A DNA stretch of 14,726 bases from a virus (taxonomy: Duplodnaviria > Heunggongvirae > Uroviricota > Caudoviricetes). This document shows positions 1,341-8,095 of the stretch, piece by piece. Each line of letters begins with the position of its first letter. Position 1 is the first letter of the stretch. The DNA lies in the IMG/VR virus record IMGVR_UViG_2534681663_000009; one strand, given 5' to 3'. Both the position numbers and the translations under genes were made by a program. The notes under the pieces are model-generated. The model had not been told where the DNA came from. It was given only the letters and a program-made list of their open reading frames with translations, and made no database searches.

Positions 1341-4300
1341 TTAGCCACTTAACATTCCCCCATCACGTCGCATATTTAACAGATTGCCCTGCACCCGCTG
1401 ATCAACCATCCCCATAAGTGCTTTTATTGCCTGAGGGCCAATCTCTCCATTCTGGCCGTCATTTTGAATAGTGATTTGGTATACAGGGGCATAGGTAATA
1501 TCTCCGCCTCCATTACCACTTTTACTATTAATAGCTCTGACACCAAGAGAACCATCGGAAGTTCGTGTTAATGGCATAATGGCTTCCGGTCCAGCCTCAC
1601 CAAAAACACCAGCCCCTTTTGCAAAAGCAAAAAATTGCGGGGAATCATAAATACCGTTCGAATACGTGCTCAATGACGGAGACTCATAAACACCGCCCTT
1701 TGCATTCGGAATAAATTTACTAATAGCACTCCCGATAGTTCCTAAAATCCCCCCAGAAGAACTGTTACTAATGCTGTCGAAAATCCCAGTAATTGAAGCC
1801 TTTAATGCTATTCGACTAAGATCCGAAATCACGGAAGTAGCGAAAGAACGAAAATTTGCCTTGCCTGTCGTGACAAAATCACCCAGCGCATCGGTCATCC
1901 CATCAAACATCTGAGTCGTGGTTGATTTTATCTGCTCACTGATATCCTTAGTGTCATCCAGCCAGTTATTGAATCCCTGGGAGGCACCACTAACCCAGTC
2001 TCCTGCCTGAATATCGAGCTGCTCGTTTTTCTGTCTGACAATTTCTTTTTCCCGTTCCAGAGCATCATTCAGAGCCTGCATTTTCTCTTGAAAAACATGA
2101 TCTGACATTCCACGGGATTTATCTGCATAGTCACGTTCAAGTTGCAGACGCTGATTGTTATATCCATGTTCAATCCGCAGTAATTCCTGCTGGCGTTGCT
2201 GATTTTTATCGCCAACCCCATAACCAGCAATCTGAATATCATACCCCTGCTGACGATTATCAATCGAAGCCTGCAATGAATCACGCCATGCTGTTATTTC
2301 GGCGGATTCCTTGATTAGCCTGTTATTTTTTTCAATCGCAACATTTTTCTCCATCAACGTGGTTATTTCTTCCCGGTGTAAGAGAAGCGATTTCTGATCC
2401 TGGGTTAATTTCGATGATGGTCGTGACTCTAGGTCGGCAATCCGCTGACGCCACTTAACCAGTTCCTGTTCAGAGGAACTTAATTTAACGGTCAACTCAG
2501 CTTGTGAACTTAGTAACGCATTCTGTTGATTCAGATGATCAATCATTCGTTGGGCTGCATCATCAGAATAATCTTTCGCCTTTGGTTGCTTTGGATCTTT
2601 ATAACGCTCATTTATTTGAGCGATAAGATTATTATATTCTTCCTTTGAATACTGATTCTTTAGCTTTTCCAGTTTTGCAAGTTCACTAGCTCTCTGCTGC
2701 TCCCGGGTCTGATATTGTTTTGAAAAGGCATCTGCTCTCTGTCTGAGTTCAATTCCTTCCTGTTGTCGCTTGTTGTAATCGTTTATTGATGAATTTAGTA
2801 CGTCCTGAGCAATTTTTTCTGCTTGAAGTACGCCCAATTGCTGCTTTAATCGTGCCAGCCTTTTATTTTGAGCTCCGCCATCTCCAATGCCACCTAACCC
2901 GAAAACTCCGGATCGGGTATTTTTTTCTATTTCATCAATTTGACGGAGAACATCTGAGATTTTTTGATCAAGGGAGGCCTCACGGCCAATATCCAGCATG
3001 GAATCCCATGCCCATTTTGCGGAGTCTGCGACAGCTTTCCATGCAGTCTCAAGATAACCAAGATTTTCTTTAATCTGGTTGGTGCGCTGGATCATTGAGG
3101 ATGAGTATTCTTCTGTCGCAATGCGGGCGGCCTCCTGCTGGTTCCCTTCATCCTGTAGCGCCTTAATCTGGTTATAAGTCGCAAGTGTCAGAAAATGGTA
3201 CTGATCATTAAGTTTTGATATGGCACTGACAGGATCCTTTGCAATTTCATTGAAGTCATTAACCAGTTGTTCGGTTGATATTCCTGTTACTTCGCTCGTT
3301 TTTACTATCGCTGTCGTCACTTGCTCCAGCGAACTGCTCGCTACCTTTCCCGAACGCACAAGCTGATTTAATACTGCCGCCGCAGCACCAGTTGTCGAAT
3401 CAGCCGCATTCCCGGCACGTTGAGCTAAATCGCCCAATTGCCCGCTGGTTGTCCCCAACTGATTTCCGGTAAGAATAAGAGATTTATTAAATTCGTCCTG
3501 CTCCTGAGAGCCTTTATAGTAAGCCAGTCCTAAGACCCCAACGGCTGCTGCGGCCAGGGTAAAAGGATTAATTAATCCCAGCACATAAGAACCTACCCCT
3601 TTGATCGCCGGGCCAATCCCACCGAACATATCTTTTAGCTGGCCGCCCTGCTGCATTAACACCATAAATGGCGACTGACCAGTGGACAACCCAACAACAA
3701 TATCCGTCATTTGTGCAGGCAACATGCGCATAGCAAAAGCCGTTTGTTTTGCCGACATTCCGGTTTTGCTTAATTGTGATTGAGTAACCTCAAGCTCACT
3801 CCGCATAGCACGAAGTTTTCCAGAAAGCTCCTCATACATTTCAGGAGAAAGCATCCCCTTAGCTTTTGCTTCATTGAGCTGTTTCTGTTGTTCTACCAGA
3901 CGATTAAAAGCAGTTCCGACAGGATCAAGTTGAGCAATCAGACGTTGCAAAGCAACAACCTGTTCATCATGCGCTTTTGCTGCTTCTCGCTCTGCCTGAG
4001 CCTCTCCGGTAAGCTCTCGCCGTGTTTCCTGTATTTTTCGGCTATAATTCTCAAACTGAGAACCATTTATTTTCCCGGATGCAAACGCAGCATTAAGTTC
4101 ATCATGCTGTTGTTCAAGATTTCTTAGCGCCGCAGCCAGAGGGTCGATCTTGTCCAGCATTCTTTGAAAGGCCTGAGCCTGCGCTTCCTGCTGGGCGGCA
4201 GCAAGTTTTCCGGCCTTCTCGGCTTCTCTCTGCGCTTGCGCAACCCCGCTCAATTCCTCTGTGGTTTCATTAAGTTTACGGACAAGAAATTCATATTCTT

Positions 4301-4574
4301 CTTTATCAATAAGCCCTTTATCGAAAAATTTCTTTAATTCAGAATAGCGTCGACCGACAGTATCAATTGCGGCACCAACTGGATCAATAGCTGCTTTTAA
4401 TTTTGCGAGCGCGTTCTTCTCATCTTCTGTTGCCTTAGTCACTTTCCCTGCGCTATTTGCAGCAGTTTCCCCAGCCTGCGTCATTTTGACTAATGAGGAG
4501 GTCAGATTGTCAGCATTATTTTTCGCTCCAGTGCTATCAATAATTATTGCGAGACGCGAGGTTTGCTCTGCCAT
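1341..4574 (-). CDS. Tail tape measure protein (1077 aa; lambda gpH-like C-terminal region)
   Basis: Largest ORF, between the tail chaperone and M; N-terminal coiled-coil region with three tandem ~75-aa repeats, central hydrophobic segments (…FMVLMQQGG…VGVLGLAYY), C-terminal motif [13 protein letters not shown]; ATG at 4574 with AGGAG about 9 nt upstream. Confidence 0.93.
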
Positions 4575-4594: not shown

Positions 4595-4620
4595 AAAAAA
4601 CCCACCGCGAAGTGGGTTTC
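4595..4620 (-). terminator. Rho-independent terminator-like hairpin plus U tract in the spacer between the T-frame stop and the tape measure start
   Basis: Minus-strand RNA: AAACCCAC-UUCGCG-GUGGGUUU followed by UUUUUUG; stem of 5-8 bp. Lies 15-20 nt upstream of the tape measure SD. Confidence 0.5.
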
Positions 4621-4739: not shown

Positions 4740-5509
4740 CTACACACACTGCTCCTGAAAATACTGGTCATCCAGTGCAAAGATCACTGCTTCAAATTCA
4801 TCGCGCTCAATCAATACCGGATGAGTGGCTAAATATTCATTTATCTCTGTCAGAGATAAAGGCAAAGGCACCCCAGCCATTCCAGCATAACGTCGGGCAC
4901 GGGATATTACCGAATAGGCGTACAACAACTCCTTAAGCACCGGGTCTATTTCTGGTTCCGGTATCGGTGGCAACCTGAGTTTTTCTCGCTTCCATCTTGC
5001 CTTTTCCCCCCTTTCTCCCCCGAACTCCGATAACCACCGCTGGGCAGCTATGGCTTTTTTATCGTATCCTGCTTCTGCTGCTCTTTACCCTGGGCGATGC
5101 TGGCTGCTTCTGCAAGGATCTGCCAGTACAACTCTGGATTCTGCTTAAGCAGCGCGATCCCTCGTTCTGCCGTATATTCCAGTGCAACCTCAACACCATT
5201 AACCAGTTCACCAACCCCTTTCCAGTCTTTCAGCAGATAACGAGCGGCATTATCAATGAGTAAATCATCAACAGAATCCACCTCGGAAACCTTTGAAATA
5301 TCAAACTCCTTCGTTCCGACGTGCAAACTGGCATCCATTTTCTCAATGTGGCGACGGATTAATGCATTACGGGAGCGATACTGATCGTTATCGCTGCTTG
5401 CCACCAACAGTTTTAACCCGTCTACAGGTTTTAAGTCCTTCATTGGCGTAAACCAGCGTTCTCCACCAATGATAATTTTCTGATTAAGAATAAACATCCA
5501 TAACCTCAT
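4740..5509 (-). CDS. Tail assembly chaperone frameshift fusion (gpGT analogue) made by -1 programmed ribosomal frameshifting
   Basis: The -1 frame is open from 5084 down to the stop at 4740-4742 and overlaps the end of the G frame; the only slippery heptamer in the overlap is A_AAA_AAG at 5060..5054 (minus). Predicted fusion is about 255 aa. The ORF track shows the downstream part as a 77-aa ORF with an artificial TTG start. Confidence 0.65.
5048..5509 (-). CDS. Tail assembly chaperone (lambda gpG analogue), zero-frame product
   Basis: 153-aa acidic ORF immediately downstream of the major tail gene and upstream of the tape measure; ends two codons after an A_AAA_AAG heptamer. Start could be ATG 5509 or ATG 5497 (the latter has GAGG about 8 nt upstream). 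Confidence 0.75.
   Translation of the reverse strand: MRLWMFILNQKIIIGGERWFTPMKDLKPVDGLKLLVASSDNDQYRSRNALIRRHIEKMDASLHVGTKEFDISKVSEVDSVDDLLIDNAARYLLKDWKGVGELVNGVEVALEYTAERGIALLKQNPELYWQILAEAASIAQGKEQQKQDTIKKP
5054..5060 (-). other. -1 slippery heptanucleotide A_AAA_AAG (X_XXY_YYZ in the G frame)
   Basis: Plus strand 5054-5060 is ctttttt; on the minus strand the G frame reads ATA AAA AAG CCA TAG, so the heptamer is A AAA AAG two codons before the G stop. Confidence 0.6.
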
Positions 5510-5557: not shown

Positions 5558-6520
5558 TCAACTAATCGCCTCAGCACTGGCTTTTGCGATCACGGCAGCC
5601 GGGGAATTTTTTTTTCTGGTTATCGTAGGTGCTTCATCTGCTGCGGTAATGCTCAATTGAACCTGGATAATGTCGCTATTACCCCCATCAGGCCATTCAC
5701 CTGACACCTGAACCTTCGGGAAACTGAAAGTGTATGCCCCCTCTCCATTCGAAAGCGTGAAGCTGAACGGAACTGTTTCTCCAGTCAGTGTTTTACTCCA
5801 GATTTCCCACGCGGCTTTAGACCATGAAAGCGTCACCGTACCGGACGGTGTAAAAGTAGTCGGAATATTTGCTCCTGCATAAGGCGAGCCAGTCCCGATA
5901 CAACGCTGTGTCTGGAGTTTGTTATCGAACTGAATATCAAAACTGTCGATACAAAAACCGTTACCTCCGGCAACACCATTCAGGCTTACTGCTGAAACCT
6001 CCTTAAACGAATAACGTAGCTTTCCTGCACTATCCACAGGTTCGCCTTTGATAAAATTCGTATCATCGGCCTTTGATTCCCAGTCCAGTCCGGCAAAGGT
6101 TACGGTCGCTGTAATATCGCCGTCGTTAGGGATCTGCATTTTCCATGAGCCAACCTGCGCTCCTCTGACGACAGAGGCAATTCCGACATCGGACGCATAG
6201 GTCGCCAGAGAAAATGTTATTCGCTCATTCCCCATTGTCAGAGAATCGCCTGACCATTCCGCGCCGAAACAGGATGCAAGAAAATCATCATGTTGACCCC
6301 AGCGAAATTTGGTACCAACATCACCGCCGACATCCACAGTGCCAGGCGTCGCCCCCTGAGCCATCCGGGAGCCACCAATCTCATTATTTTCGCCTTTATT
6401 CTGGGTGGGTTTTACTCCCCAGCTTGTGCGTTTTAATAAACTCCAGTCACCACTTGCTGGCGTAGTGCCTGCAACCGTCTCCCGGATAAATGCCGAGATA
6501 ACCTTTGCACCTGAACTCAC
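5558..6520 (-). CDS. Major tail (tube) protein
   Basis: 320-aa ORF between the neck genes and the G/GT chaperone pair; GTG start at 6520 with AGGAGG 6 nt upstream; Thr/Ser/Gly-rich beta-type composition typical of siphovirus tube proteins. Confidence 0.78.
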   Translation of the reverse strand: MSSGAKVISAFIRETVAGTTPASGDWSLLKRTSWGVKPTQNKGENNEIGGSRMAQGATPGTVDVGGDVGTKFRWGQHDDFLASCFGAEWSGDSLTMGNERITFSLATYASDVGIASVVRGAQVGSWKMQIPNDGDITATVTFAGLDWESKADDTNFIKGEPVDSAGKLRYSFKEVSAVSLNGVAGGNGFCIDSFDIQFDNKLQTQRCIGTGSPYAGANIPTTFTPSGTVTLSWSKAAWEIWSKTLTGETVPFSFTLSNGEGAYTFSFPKVQVSGEWPDGGNSDIIQVQLSITAADEAPTITRKKNSPAAVIAKASAEAIS

Positions 6521-7316: not shown

Positions 7317-7700
7317 TTACGCTCTCCTTAACTGGATAGAGTAAACTGATGCGGAAGGATCTACACTTGCTGTAATTACCTCGTATCGTTGTAACTGCCT
7401 TGATACAGGATCATAAATCTCAATAATATGGTCGACAGCTGGTTTATCCGTAACCTCGCATACCAGAGCGGTTAATTTAAGGTCACCATGCAAAATATTA
7501 ATCCCATCAATTCTGCCCAGCTTATAACGTGTCAACACGCCTCGCCCGGTATAGATTGCGGTGGATTCGCCGCCAGTTTCCGTCACAGGATCCCAGTGCC
7601 GGTGCGTAACGTAAGAACCAGAAAAATCACTCACGGCGTCCGCTAAATCCTCATCAAAAGCAGCGGCAACCTCTGACTGAATCTCTTCACGAAGCCCCAT
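7317..7700 (-). CDS. Head closure / head-tail joining protein
   Basis: 127-aa ORF, second gene after the capsid gene; start overlaps the upstream stop (TAATG at 7698-7702). Synteny-based call. Confidence 0.5.
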   Translation of the reverse strand: MGLREEIQSEVAAAFDEDLADAVSDFSGSYVTHRHWDPVTETGGESTAIYTGRGVLTRYKLGRIDGINILHGDLKLTALVCEVTDKPAVDHIIEIYDPVSRQLQRYEVITASVDPSASVYSIQLRRA

Positions 7701-8095
7701 TATCCCCCCCTCACAACCCTGACTTGTGAGCGACTAAGTCCGTACGGTTTCAGCAGTGCTATCGCAAGCTGTAAATCGGGTTCAAGCAATGCAGTGCTGT
7801 TTGCTGGCAACTCAGAAAATGATTTCGATACACTGACCCCGTCAGCCGACACGGCTTTACTGATAACAACGCCAGAATCATTTTTCTGCTGAAACAACTT
7901 ACCGAATGAGGCAATTCTGGCTGCATATGCTCCCGCAAGTTTTACCTCTTCCGGAATACGGGATGGGTTAATTTTCAGGTTGAAGCCATTAAGCCAGGCA
8001 TTAGCCATTAAAACAGCTTTATTTTTAGCGTTCTCACTCGTCCAGGCGTTCCCAAACGCATTATCAACGTCATCACAGGTCACGTAAGTGATCAT
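7700..8095 (-). CDS. Head-tail connector (gp6-like adaptor)
   Basis: 131-aa ORF, first conserved connector gene downstream of the capsid gene; N-terminus MITYVTCDDVDNAFG...AWLNG resembles the gp6-like connector pattern; ATG at 8095. Confidence 0.55.
   Translation of the reverse strand: MITYVTCDDVDNAFGNAWTSENAKNKAVLMANAWLNGFNLKINPSRIPEEVKLAGAYAARIASFGKLFQQKNDSGVVISKAVSADGVSVSKSFSELPANSTALLEPDLQLAIALLKPYGLSRSQVRVVRGG

What the first reader, a model, noticed from the sequence alone, without database searches (positions are those of the whole stretch)
5048..5090. Programmed -1 frameshift site A_AAA_AAG joining the tail chaperone ORFs (G/GT analogue)
The chaperone ORF ends at 5048, and the -1 frame is open from 5084 to 4740. 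Within the 37-nt overlap the only heptamer fitting X_XXY_YYZ is A AAA AAG (5060..5054), the same heptamer used by E. coli dnaX and IS911 rather than lambda's G GGA AAG. The conserved G/GT frameshift before the tape measure gene is well established in tailed phages; here it predicts a fusion of about 255 aa. The ORF track misrepresents the downstream part as an independent 77-aa ORF.
Basis: partly seen in the sequence, partly recalled or inferred. Interest (0 to 1): 0.55.

Follow-up and report, generated by a model that had tools for sequence, protein, structure and literature searches.

The report
Tail chaperone G/GT frameshift site
This is an ordinary but unannotated example of the programmed -1 ribosomal frameshift that tailed phages use to make a short and a long tail-assembly chaperone from one gene, here in the Rac-type prophage gene that E. 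coli databases call ydaY.

Summary
On the minus strand the chaperone gene G (149 aa from ATG 5497, stop TAG 5050-5048) carries A_AAA_AAG at 5060-5054 in the correct frame. The -1 frame is open from 5084 to TAG 4742-4740. The locus lies between the tail tube gene and the tape measure gene.

In 101 of 102 related loci the T part is in the -1 frame. The G and T protein matches abut on the final G of the heptamer. The wobble-position variability pattern switches from frame 0 to frame -1 at that point. The 27 codons after the heptamer are conserved as protein although they contain no start codon.

The heptamer is kept in 42 of 43 enterobacterial sequence variants. A Raoultella genome has lambda's G_GGA_AAG at the same place. 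Distant Acinetobacter relatives also use G_GGA_AAG, and one of them (phage TRS1) is already annotated with the joined product.

No stimulatory RNA structure was found, and the nearest SD-like motif is too close to the site.

The mechanism is textbook. What is new is only that this widespread E. coli prophage gene pair (ydaY plus a "hypothetical protein") is mis-annotated.

The parts
5048..5497 (-). Gene G, the tail assembly chaperone, read in the zero frame. It encodes 149 aa from ATG 5497, and the stop TAG 5050-5048 is included in the coordinates. The longest ORF begins at ATG 5509. This gene is the intact form of E. coli 'ydaY'.
5054..5060 (-). Slippery heptamer A_AAA_AAG in X_XXY_YYZ phase. 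The P-site codon is AAA and the A-site codon is AAG, both Lys. The first A comes from the Ile codon ATA.
   Evidence: It is the only in-frame canonical heptamer in G. It is kept in 42 of 43 unique enterobacterial variants, and the 43rd has GGGAAAG. The A-site Lys is invariant across 8 lineages at 26-66% identity.
5052..5053 (-). The dinucleotide CC immediately 3' of the heptamer.
   Evidence: It is invariant in all 43 variants, although 5052 is the third position of the -1-frame codon GCC. A review reports 3' CC as the most shift-prone context for A_AAA_AAG in E. coli (PMC5009743).
4740..5054 (-). T extension read in the -1 frame: 104 codons starting with GCC at 5054-5052, then the stop TAG 4742-4740. 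It has no start codon before TTG 4973.
   Evidence: Translation. PHROG 1189 E=1e-36, and a weak Pfam Phage_TAC_18 match (E=5e-4, below the cut-off). The -1-frame protein is conserved from the first codon after the heptamer. Database gene callers give T homologues arbitrary starts and lengths of 60-138 aa.
4740..5497 (-). Predicted GT fusion product of 252 aa: 148 zero-frame codons up to AAG 5056-5054, then a -1 shift and 104 further codons.
   Evidence: The fused sequence matches PHROG 313 over profile positions 20-246 of 258 at 174 bits, against 158 bits for G alone. tblastn finds two abutting pieces sharing one nucleotide in 101 of 102 loci.
5558..6520 (-). Upstream neighbour: the major tail tube protein gene (context).
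   Evidence: Pfam Phage_tube_2 E=9e-32; PHROG 290.
1341..4574 (-). Downstream neighbour: the tape measure protein gene (context).
   Evidence: Pfam TMP_2, Tape_meas_lam_C and TMP_4; PHROG 24.

Best explanation
Most ribosomes translating gene G terminate at TAG 5050-5048 and release the 149-aa chaperone G. A minority slip back one nucleotide. This happens when the two tRNA-Lys molecules occupy AAA (5059-5057) and AAG (5056-5054) of A_AAA_AAG and re-pair on AAA AAA. Those ribosomes then read GCC ATA GCT... in the -1 frame to TAG 4742-4740 and make a 252-aa GT protein with a 104-aa C-terminal T domain.

By analogy with lambda gpG/gpGT, many copies of G and a few of GT coat the tape measure protein. 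The T domain recruits the tail tube protein so that the tube polymerises around the tape measure. Neither protein ends up in the virion.

What is shown here: the site, its phase, the frame arrangement, frame-specific purifying selection on T starting at the heptamer, conservation or exchange of the slippery site, and the chaperone identity of G. What is inferred: that slippage really happens, its efficiency, the G:GT ratio, and the binding partners. The shift appears to rely on the heptamer and its CC context alone, with no RNA structure and no correctly spaced internal Shine-Dalgarno sequence.
For: Site, phase and frames.

Gene order tube - G/T - tape measure.

Identity of G as a tail assembly chaperone:
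- PHROG 313, E=5e-46.
- BFVD Foldseek hits at probability about 1.0 are annotated tail or tape-measure chaperones.

The fused G+T sequence extends the PHROG 313 match to profile positions 20-246 of 258.

Frame arrangement: in 101 of 102 loci (61 unique sequences) T is at -1, and the G and T matches share the G of AAG.

Junction comparison:
- AAAAAAG in Escherichia, Shigella, Citrobacter, Klebsiella, Dryocola and Entomohabitans loci.
- GGGAAAG at the same codons in a Raoultella genome.
- The zero-frame tail after the site varies (0, 1, 7, 20 or 35 aa), while the -1 ORF is always at least 104 codons.

Column entropy by codon position: upstream, in frame 0, 0.28/0.15/0.90; downstream, in frame -1, 0.49/0.35/1.09.

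The 81 nt after the heptamer, which hold no start codon, show the same -1 periodicity (0.37/0.31/0.86). They differ at 6-10 of 27 residues in frame -1 against 17-19 of 27 in the other frames, at about 29 nucleotide differences.

Codon choice at the site is always AAA-AAG, although Lys codons elsewhere in G are 352 AAA to 213 AAG.

Distant homologues (26-33% identity) in Pseudomonas and Acinetobacter phages keep the -1 arrangement and an invariant Lys at the junction. Acinetobacter phage TRS1 gene TRS1_19 is deposited as a two-piece joined CDS.

Literature (PMC5009743): A_AAA_AAG is the most shift-prone heptamer tested in E. coli, and 3' CC is the most shift-prone following context. The lambda G/GT mechanism and its conservation among long-tailed phages are summarised in the same review.
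Against: There is no direct evidence for this locus: no junction peptide, reporter assay or ribosome profiling was found.

No stimulatory element was found. The local hairpin starts immediately after the heptamer, is rich in G-U pairs (-11.3 kcal/mol) and folds no better than shuffled sequence (z=+1.25). The consensus structure over 15 variants has 4 pairs, -2.6 kcal/mol and no covariation. The conserved AGGA lies 6 nt upstream, outside the 9-14 nt reported for -1 stimulation.

G and T have no significant Pfam match to the lambda G or T families. The functional roles therefore rest on analogy and on a low-Z fold match. The fold matches of T are weak (best E=0.13).
Confidence: 0.9

Rival explanations
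1. Transcriptional slippage: RNA polymerase adds one extra A in the A6 run. A fraction of mRNAs then encode the G-T fusion in one frame, and the ribosome reads normally.
For: The site is a homopolymer (six A), and one extra A would give exactly the same fusion protein (reading). The two routes cannot be told apart from DNA sequence.
Against: Selection against slippage-prone A or T runs in bacterial coding regions becomes evident at about nine nucleotides (PMC1088944). This run has six. Homologues keep the same junction with GGGAAAG (Raoultella, Acinetobacter), GGAAAAG (Pseudomonas) or GCAAAG (Erwinia), which have A runs of only 3-4. What is conserved is therefore a tRNA-slippage motif ending in A_AAG, not a homopolymer.
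Confidence: 0.04
2. T is an independent small gene started at an internal codon (TTG 4973 as in the ORF track and PGAP, or GTG as in the SPF_0923 record). The overlap with G would then be incidental.
For: Database annotations call it this way: a 77-aa or 61-aa 'hypothetical protein'.
Against: The 27 codons between the heptamer and TTG 4973 are under frame -1 purifying selection across genera, although they contain no start codon. Gene callers pick different starts in different genomes, giving 60-138 aa and 39-97% coverage. I see no Shine-Dalgarno sequence before TTG 4973 or the GTG (my reading). The -1 phase and the abutting junction hold in 101 of 102 loci.
Confidence: 0.03
3. Artefact or decay: a sequencing error or a genuine frameshift mutation has split a single 250-aa gene in a degenerating prophage.
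For: Homopolymer runs are error-prone. A few database entries do show indels here or nearby, for example L040 and proteins P0002-P0004. The K-12 Rac copy of this region is itself a remnant.
Against: The same split is present in 1074 complete E. coli genomes, 768 of them at >=99% identity. It is present in isolated phages (SPF_0923, the vB_EcoS series, Klebsiella, Erwinia, Pseudomonas and Acinetobacter phages). It is present in every lineage down to 26% identity. A decaying gene would not keep a -1 ORF of at least 104 codons under purifying selection.
Confidence: 0.01

Closest known systems
Phage lambda gpG/gpGT programmed -1 frameshift, and the conserved G/GT arrangement of long-tailed phages (Levin, Hendrix & Casjens 1993; Xu, Hendrix & Duda 2004, 2013, 2014, as summarised in PMC5009743)
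   Same: Two overlapping ORFs lie between the major tail protein gene and the tape measure gene. The second ORF is at -1 and has no start of its own. A heptanucleotide ending in A_AAG sits near the 3' end of G. No stimulatory structure was found here, and from memory, not checked here, the lambda shift needs none. The downstream genes are lambda-like (tape measure C-terminal domain; M, L, K, I, J order in the matching phage record).
   Different: The heptamer is A_AAA_AAG, not G_GGA_AAG. G and T have no detectable sequence match to Pfam's lambda G and T families. The zero-frame stop follows the site after a single codon.
Acinetobacter phage vB_AbaS_TRS1 chaperones TRS1_18/TRS1_19 (NC_031098), in the PHROG 313 family
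   Same: It is a distant homologue: 38.8% identity over query residues 170-249 (within the T part) by tblastn, 26% identity of the fused sequence in alignment A1. It has the same tube - G/GT gene order and the same -1 arrangement, and the shift falls at the aligned invariant Lys. It is already deposited as a joined two-piece CDS.
   Different: It uses G_GGA_AAG. The zero-frame tail after the site is 26 codons long. Other genes are inserted between T and the tape measure gene.
E. coli dnaX -1 frameshift cassette (and, from my own knowledge, IS911 orfAB)
   Same: Identical slippery heptamer A_AAA_AAG, decoded by the single E. coli tRNA-Lys.
   Different: dnaX adds an internal Shine-Dalgarno sequence 9-14 nt upstream and an 11-bp stem-loop downstream, and it shifts about half of the ribosomes. 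Here neither stimulator is present, so a low efficiency is expected. The biological purpose is also unrelated.
E. coli K-12 Rac prophage gene ydaY (with ynaA/tmpR downstream)
   Same: The K-12 sequence is 100% identical over query positions 162-986. That stretch includes the heptamer, the whole T frame and the start of the tape measure gene.
   Different: The K-12 copy lacks the 5' end of G, which is joined to ynaK, and its tape measure gene is a truncated pseudogene. It is a non-functional remnant. Its 119-aa 'YdaY' model is nevertheless what RefSeq propagates onto intact prophages.

Membership tests
G/GT-type tail assembly chaperone frameshift of long-tailed phages | Two overlapping ORFs located between the major tail (tube) protein gene and the tape measure gene | tested here: met
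   Tube gene 5558-6520, G 5048-5497, T 4740-5054, tape measure gene 1341-4574, all on the minus strand.
G/GT-type tail assembly chaperone frameshift of long-tailed phages | The second ORF is in the -1 frame relative to the first and has no credible start or ribosome binding site of its own | tested here: met
   The -1 frame is open from 5084. T is at -1 in 101 of 102 loci. The first possible start in the T frame is TTG 4973, 27 codons into the conserved region, and I see no SD before it. Gene callers choose inconsistent starts.
G/GT-type tail assembly chaperone frameshift of long-tailed phages | A slippery sequence in correct phase within the overlap | tested here: met
   A_AAA_AAG at 5060-5054 in X_XXY_YYZ phase; it is the only one in G.
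G/GT-type tail assembly chaperone frameshift of long-tailed phages | The arrangement and the shift site are conserved among diverged homologues | tested here: met
   42 of 43 enterobacterial variants keep AAAAAAG and one has GGGAAAG. The junction Lys is invariant down to 26% identity. Codon periodicity switches frame at the site.
G/GT-type tail assembly chaperone frameshift of long-tailed phages | G has the tail assembly chaperone fold or family identity | tested here: met
G/GT-type tail assembly chaperone frameshift of long-tailed phages | Two proteins, G and GT, are made at a fixed ratio with G in excess; both are needed for tail assembly and both are absent from virions | not testable with these tools
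   This needs protein analysis and genetics. No paper on this locus was found.
Lambda gpG / gpT sequence families (Pfam) | Significant match to the Pfam models of the lambda G and T proteins | tested here: not met
   No Pfam family matches G at E<=1. T gives only a sub-threshold match to Phage_TAC_18 (20.6 bits against a cut-off of 27). The locus is therefore an analogue, or a very distant relative, of lambda G/T, not a member of those sequence families.
PHROG 313 chaperone family (includes Acinetobacter phage TRS1 with an annotated frameshift) | Profile match over both the G and the T parts, and homology to a member deposited with a joined CDS | tested here: met
   The fusion matches profile positions 20-246 of 258, E=8e-51. 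tblastn reaches TRS1 and other Acinetobacter and Pseudomonas phages. TRS1_19 carries the j2 (two-piece join) flag.
dnaX-type stimulated -1 frameshift cassette | Internal Shine-Dalgarno sequence 9-14 nt upstream of the heptamer | tested here: not met
   The only SD-like motif, AGGA at 5070-5067, is 6 nt from the heptamer. The required spacing is taken from PMC5009743.
dnaX-type stimulated -1 frameshift cassette | A stable, conserved stem-loop or pseudoknot 5-9 nt downstream (spacing from my own knowledge) | tested here: not met
   Fold energy z=+1.25. RNAalifold gives 4 pairs, -2.6 kcal/mol and no covariation. Other lineages have z between -0.33 and +0.96.
Programmed transcriptional slippage | A homopolymer run long enough for RNA polymerase slippage (about 9 A or T in many bacteria) | tested here: not met
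   The run is A6 here and A3-A4 at the homologous site in other lineages. The threshold is from PMC1088944.

The most novel reading that the evidence does not exclude
The family shows turnover of the shift-site type at one homologous, invariant Lys codon: A_AAA_AAG in most enterobacteria, G_GGA_AAG in a Raoultella genome and in Acinetobacter phages, G_GAA_AAG in the Pseudomonas phiPSA1 group, and C_GCA_AAG followed directly by UAA in Erwinia phage Gungnir39. The last two cannot re-pair the P-site tRNA, have no canonical heptamer anywhere in their overlap, and have no significant downstream structure. If they are functional, frameshifting in this family needs only single-tRNA-Lys slippage on A_AAG. 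In the Erwinia case the adjacent stop codon may help. The family would then be a natural allelic series for testing the minimal requirements of bacterial -1 frameshifting.
Probability: 0.4. Interest if true: 0.35.

Novelty: new member of a known kind. Interest (0 to 1): 0.2.

Why it matters
The value is mainly for annotation. The locus occurs in about one in five complete E. coli genomes (1074 of 5426). In all 30 listed RefSeq records the annotated features are 'YdaY' and, in some, a 'hypothetical protein'. In the one intact-prophage record inspected in detail, YdaY is shortened to 119 aa, as in the truncated K-12 copy.

Recognising the pair as G/GT does three things:
- It gives a function to the K-12 y-gene ydaY, which is a remnant of a tail assembly chaperone gene.
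- It corrects the gene start.
- It replaces a spurious small ORF with a 252-aa frameshift product.

It adds nothing new mechanistically to the established G/GT paradigm. It does add one more case in which the slippery heptamer alone appears to suffice, and a family in which the heptamer type has been exchanged at a fixed codon.

Tried and rejected
- Downstream stimulatory structure. I folded the 74 nt after the heptamer, ran RNAalifold on 15 diverse enterobacterial variants, and folded the equivalent 60 nt of the Pseudomonas, Erwinia, Acinetobacter and Raoultella sites. None folds better than shuffled sequence, and there is no covariation.
- Upstream Shine-Dalgarno stimulator. AGGA is invariant in the 43 enterobacterial sequence variants, but it lies 6 nt from the site, outside the 9-14 nt window. 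Its invariance can be explained by the conserved Gln-Asp/Glu codons, so I do not claim it as a stimulator.
- Sequence match to solved structures, using profiles of G and of the fusion. Nothing relevant was found.
- Pfam and NCBIfam matches for G. None was found. The precomputed Pfam label PF27119 on homologues is not in the local Pfam copy, so its name could not be read.
- Literature on ydaY or the Rac prophage together with frameshifting. Nothing relevant was found. Gurvich et al. 2003 (EMBO J), which from memory tested A_AAA_AAG sites of E. coli genes and may include ydaY, is not held.
- The genome-contig scan with the eight-lineage alignment failed because no stretch was conserved enough. 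The three-sequence alignment returned only 11 loci.
- A combined G+T alignment on the natural fusion P0001 misaligned the T fragments and was not used. G and T were modelled separately.
- The A9 run in the tail tube gene was considered as a second recoding site and set aside. Neither alternative frame extends the protein, and the run is not conserved beyond close relatives.

Full report
**What is in the sequence**

All genes of interest are on the minus strand. Around the finding, the strand reads ...CAG GAT ACG ATA AAA AAG CCA TAG CTG CCC....
- The stop TAG is at 5050-5048.
- The heptamer A AAA AAG occupies 5060-5054. Its first A is the last base of an ATA codon, so it sits in the X_XXY_YYZ phase needed for tandem -1 slippage.
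- The -1 frame has a TAA at 5087-5085 and is then open to the TAG at 4742-4740.
- The ORF list shows the downstream part only as a 77-aa TTG ORF at 4740-4973.
- A scan of all 16 minus-strand genes found 22 in-frame X_XXY_YYZ heptamers in 4500 codon positions. Only one is in this gene, and it is the only in-frame A_AAA_AAG in the window.
- The plain count of AAAAAAG in the window is at chance level (4 found, 4.8 expected). The case therefore rests on place, phase and conservation, not on the motif as such.
- The gene most likely starts at ATG 5497 (GAGG six bases upstream; homologues begin MFILN/MLII). That gives 149 aa for the short product and 252 aa for the fusion.

**Context**

- The upstream neighbour (5558-6520) is a tail tube protein (Pfam Phage_tube_2, E=9e-32).
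- The downstream neighbour (1341-4574) is a tape measure protein (TMP_2, E=2e-81).
- The short product matches PHROG 313 'tail assembly chaperone' (E=5e-46), and the T part matches PHROG 1189 (E=1e-36).
- When the two parts are joined at the heptamer, the PHROG 313 match extends from profile positions 15-149 to 20-246 of 258 and gains 16 bits. That family therefore already contains fused forms.
- In the viral structure library, the named matches of G are tail or tape-measure chaperones at probability about 1.0.
- The T model (pLDDT 74.6, all helical) gives only weak matches (best E=0.13). The named ones among the top hits are long, fused chaperone forms of phages CcrColossus, Loki and Sansa.

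**Where the window comes from**

- The 986 bases around the site are 100% identical to Salmonella phage SPF_0923 and 98% identical to nine E. coli vB_EcoS phages.
- They occur in 1074 of 5426 complete E. coli genomes, 768 of them at >=99% identity.
- The gene is the one E. coli databases call ydaY, from the Rac prophage. In K-12 the copy is truncated at its 5' end next to ynaK. The T frame is unannotated there, and the tape measure gene (ynaA) is a pseudogene.
- RefSeq carries the 119-aa K-12 model over to an intact prophage. There it starts the gene at an internal Met and calls T a 77-aa hypothetical protein.
- None of the 30 listed E. coli records, and none of the close phage records inspected, annotates a frameshift.

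**The comparative test**

I collected 102 homologous loci, giving 61 distinct G-T sequences. They come from viral contigs, species-representative genomes and phage records.
- In 101 of them T lies in the -1 frame. The tblastn matches to G (residues 1-148) and to T (residues 1-104) end and begin on the same nucleotide, the G of AAG. The exception, L040, carries two single-base homopolymer deletions downstream and looks like an error or a decayed copy.
- Among 43 distinct 300-nt enterobacterial variants, 42 keep AAAAAAG. The 43rd, a Raoultella genome, has GGGAAAG at exactly the same codons. That is a coordinated triple change which keeps the X_XXY_YYZ form while changing Lys to Gly.
- The two bases after the heptamer (CC) never vary, although one of them is a -1-frame wobble position. 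A review reports CC as the most shift-prone 3' context for A_AAA_AAG in E. coli (PMC5009743).
- The Lys-Lys codon pair at the site is always AAA-AAG, whereas Lys codons elsewhere in G are 352 AAA to 213 AAG.
- After the site the zero frame runs on for 0, 1, 7, 20 or 35 codons in different lineages, with unrelated sequence. The -1 frame is always open for at least 104 codons.
- Column entropy by codon position is 0.28/0.15/0.90 in frame 0 upstream of the site, and 0.49/0.35/1.09 in frame -1 downstream.
- The 81 bases directly after the heptamer precede any possible start codon of the T frame. They show the same -1 periodicity (0.37/0.31/0.86). With about 29 nucleotide differences they change 6-10 of 27 residues in frame -1, against 17-19 of 27 in the other frames. 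This stretch is therefore translated in the -1 frame, and only a frameshift from G can deliver ribosomes there.

**Distant relatives**

tblastn with the fusion finds two-piece matches in Klebsiella, Erwinia, Pseudomonas and Acinetobacter phages, down to about 31% identity.
- In an alignment of eight fused sequences (26-66% identity to the window), the Lys at the A-site codon of the shift is one of only twelve invariant columns.
- The Acinetobacter phages use lambda's G_GGA_AAG. TRS1 is deposited with a joined two-piece chaperone CDS.
- The Pseudomonas phiPSA1 group has G_GAA_AAG. Erwinia phage Gungnir39 has GCA AAG followed directly by TAA. Neither has a canonical heptamer anywhere in the overlap.

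**Stimulators**

The hairpin that forms right after the heptamer is weak and no better than shuffled sequence (z=+1.25).
- A consensus fold over 15 variants has four pairs and no covariation. The other lineages also show nothing.
- An AGGA motif 6 nt upstream is invariant in the 43 enterobacterial sequence variants, but it lies outside the 9-14 nt spacing reported to stimulate -1 shifts.
- The site therefore appears to work through the heptamer and its context alone. This fits a low-efficiency G/GT shift. The lambda ratio is given as 30:1 in PMC5009743.

**Rivals**

- Transcriptional slippage is unlikely. The run is six A, while selection against slippage-prone runs appears at about nine (PMC1088944). 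Relatives keep the junction with runs of three or four A.
- Independent initiation of T is contradicted by the conserved region without a start codon, and by the inconsistent starts that gene callers choose.
- Sequencing error or decay is excluded by the population and cross-genus data.

**Verdict**

This is a new, unannotated member of a well-known kind. It works like lambda G/GT and belongs to the PHROG 313 chaperone family, in which one distant member is already annotated with the shift. It does not match the lambda G and T sequence families in Pfam, and it lacks the stimulators of the dnaX cassette, whose heptamer it shares. Interest is low. The practical value is in correcting the annotation of ydaY and its neighbour across E. 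coli genomes.

Noticed in passing
window 4597-4620, minus strand: A terminator-like hairpin followed by a T run (GAAACCCACTTCGCGGTGGGTTTT TTGTTG) lies in the 165-nt gap between the T stop (4740) and the tape measure gene start (4574), inside what should be one late operon. In relatives the same gap holds inserted genes, for example HicA/HicB in Acinetobacter phage AM106 and membrane protein genes in Klebsiella prophages.
   Followed up: no
window 5607-5615, minus strand: [quoted passage not shown] Its length is 9, 8 or 7 among near-identical loci, and it is absent in more distant relatives. Either alternative frame gives only a short different tail, so no extension product is expected. It is probably just a hypermutable or error-prone homopolymer.
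   Followed up: partly
protein P0001 (E. coli NB16F79_39920); corresponds to window 5069-5113: This is a natural in-frame G-T fusion of 240 aa. Its sequence ...QILAEA|GYDKKAIAAQ... equals the -1-frame reading upstream of the heptamer. That implies a 35-nt deletion between two GCAGAAGCAG direct repeats (5113-5104 and 5078-5069). This allele would make only GT and no G. P0123 is another deletion chimera, joining the first 26 residues of G to the C-terminal part of T.
   Followed up: partly
L104 (NZ_AP045771.1) 1354-1713 and L105 (K-12 MG1655) 2493-2852: In the intact-prophage record inspected, RefSeq annotates ydaY as a 119-aa protein starting at an internal Met, apparently because the name-giving K-12 copy is truncated at its 5' end. 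The true start lies 30 codons upstream.
   Followed up: yes
L089, L083, L084 and L091 (Pseudomonas phiPSA1 group); L085 (Erwinia phage Gungnir39) 1986-1995: Non-canonical shift sites lie at the homologous Lys codon: CTG GAA AAG CC in the Pseudomonas phages, and GCA AAG TAA in the Erwinia phage, where the stop follows directly. There is no canonical heptamer in the overlap and no significant downstream structure.
   Followed up: partly
window 7703-7709, minus strand: An in-frame G_GGG_GGA heptamer lies directly before the stop of the 131-aa gene 7700-8095, where that gene overlaps the start of the next gene. It was not examined further.
   Followed up: no
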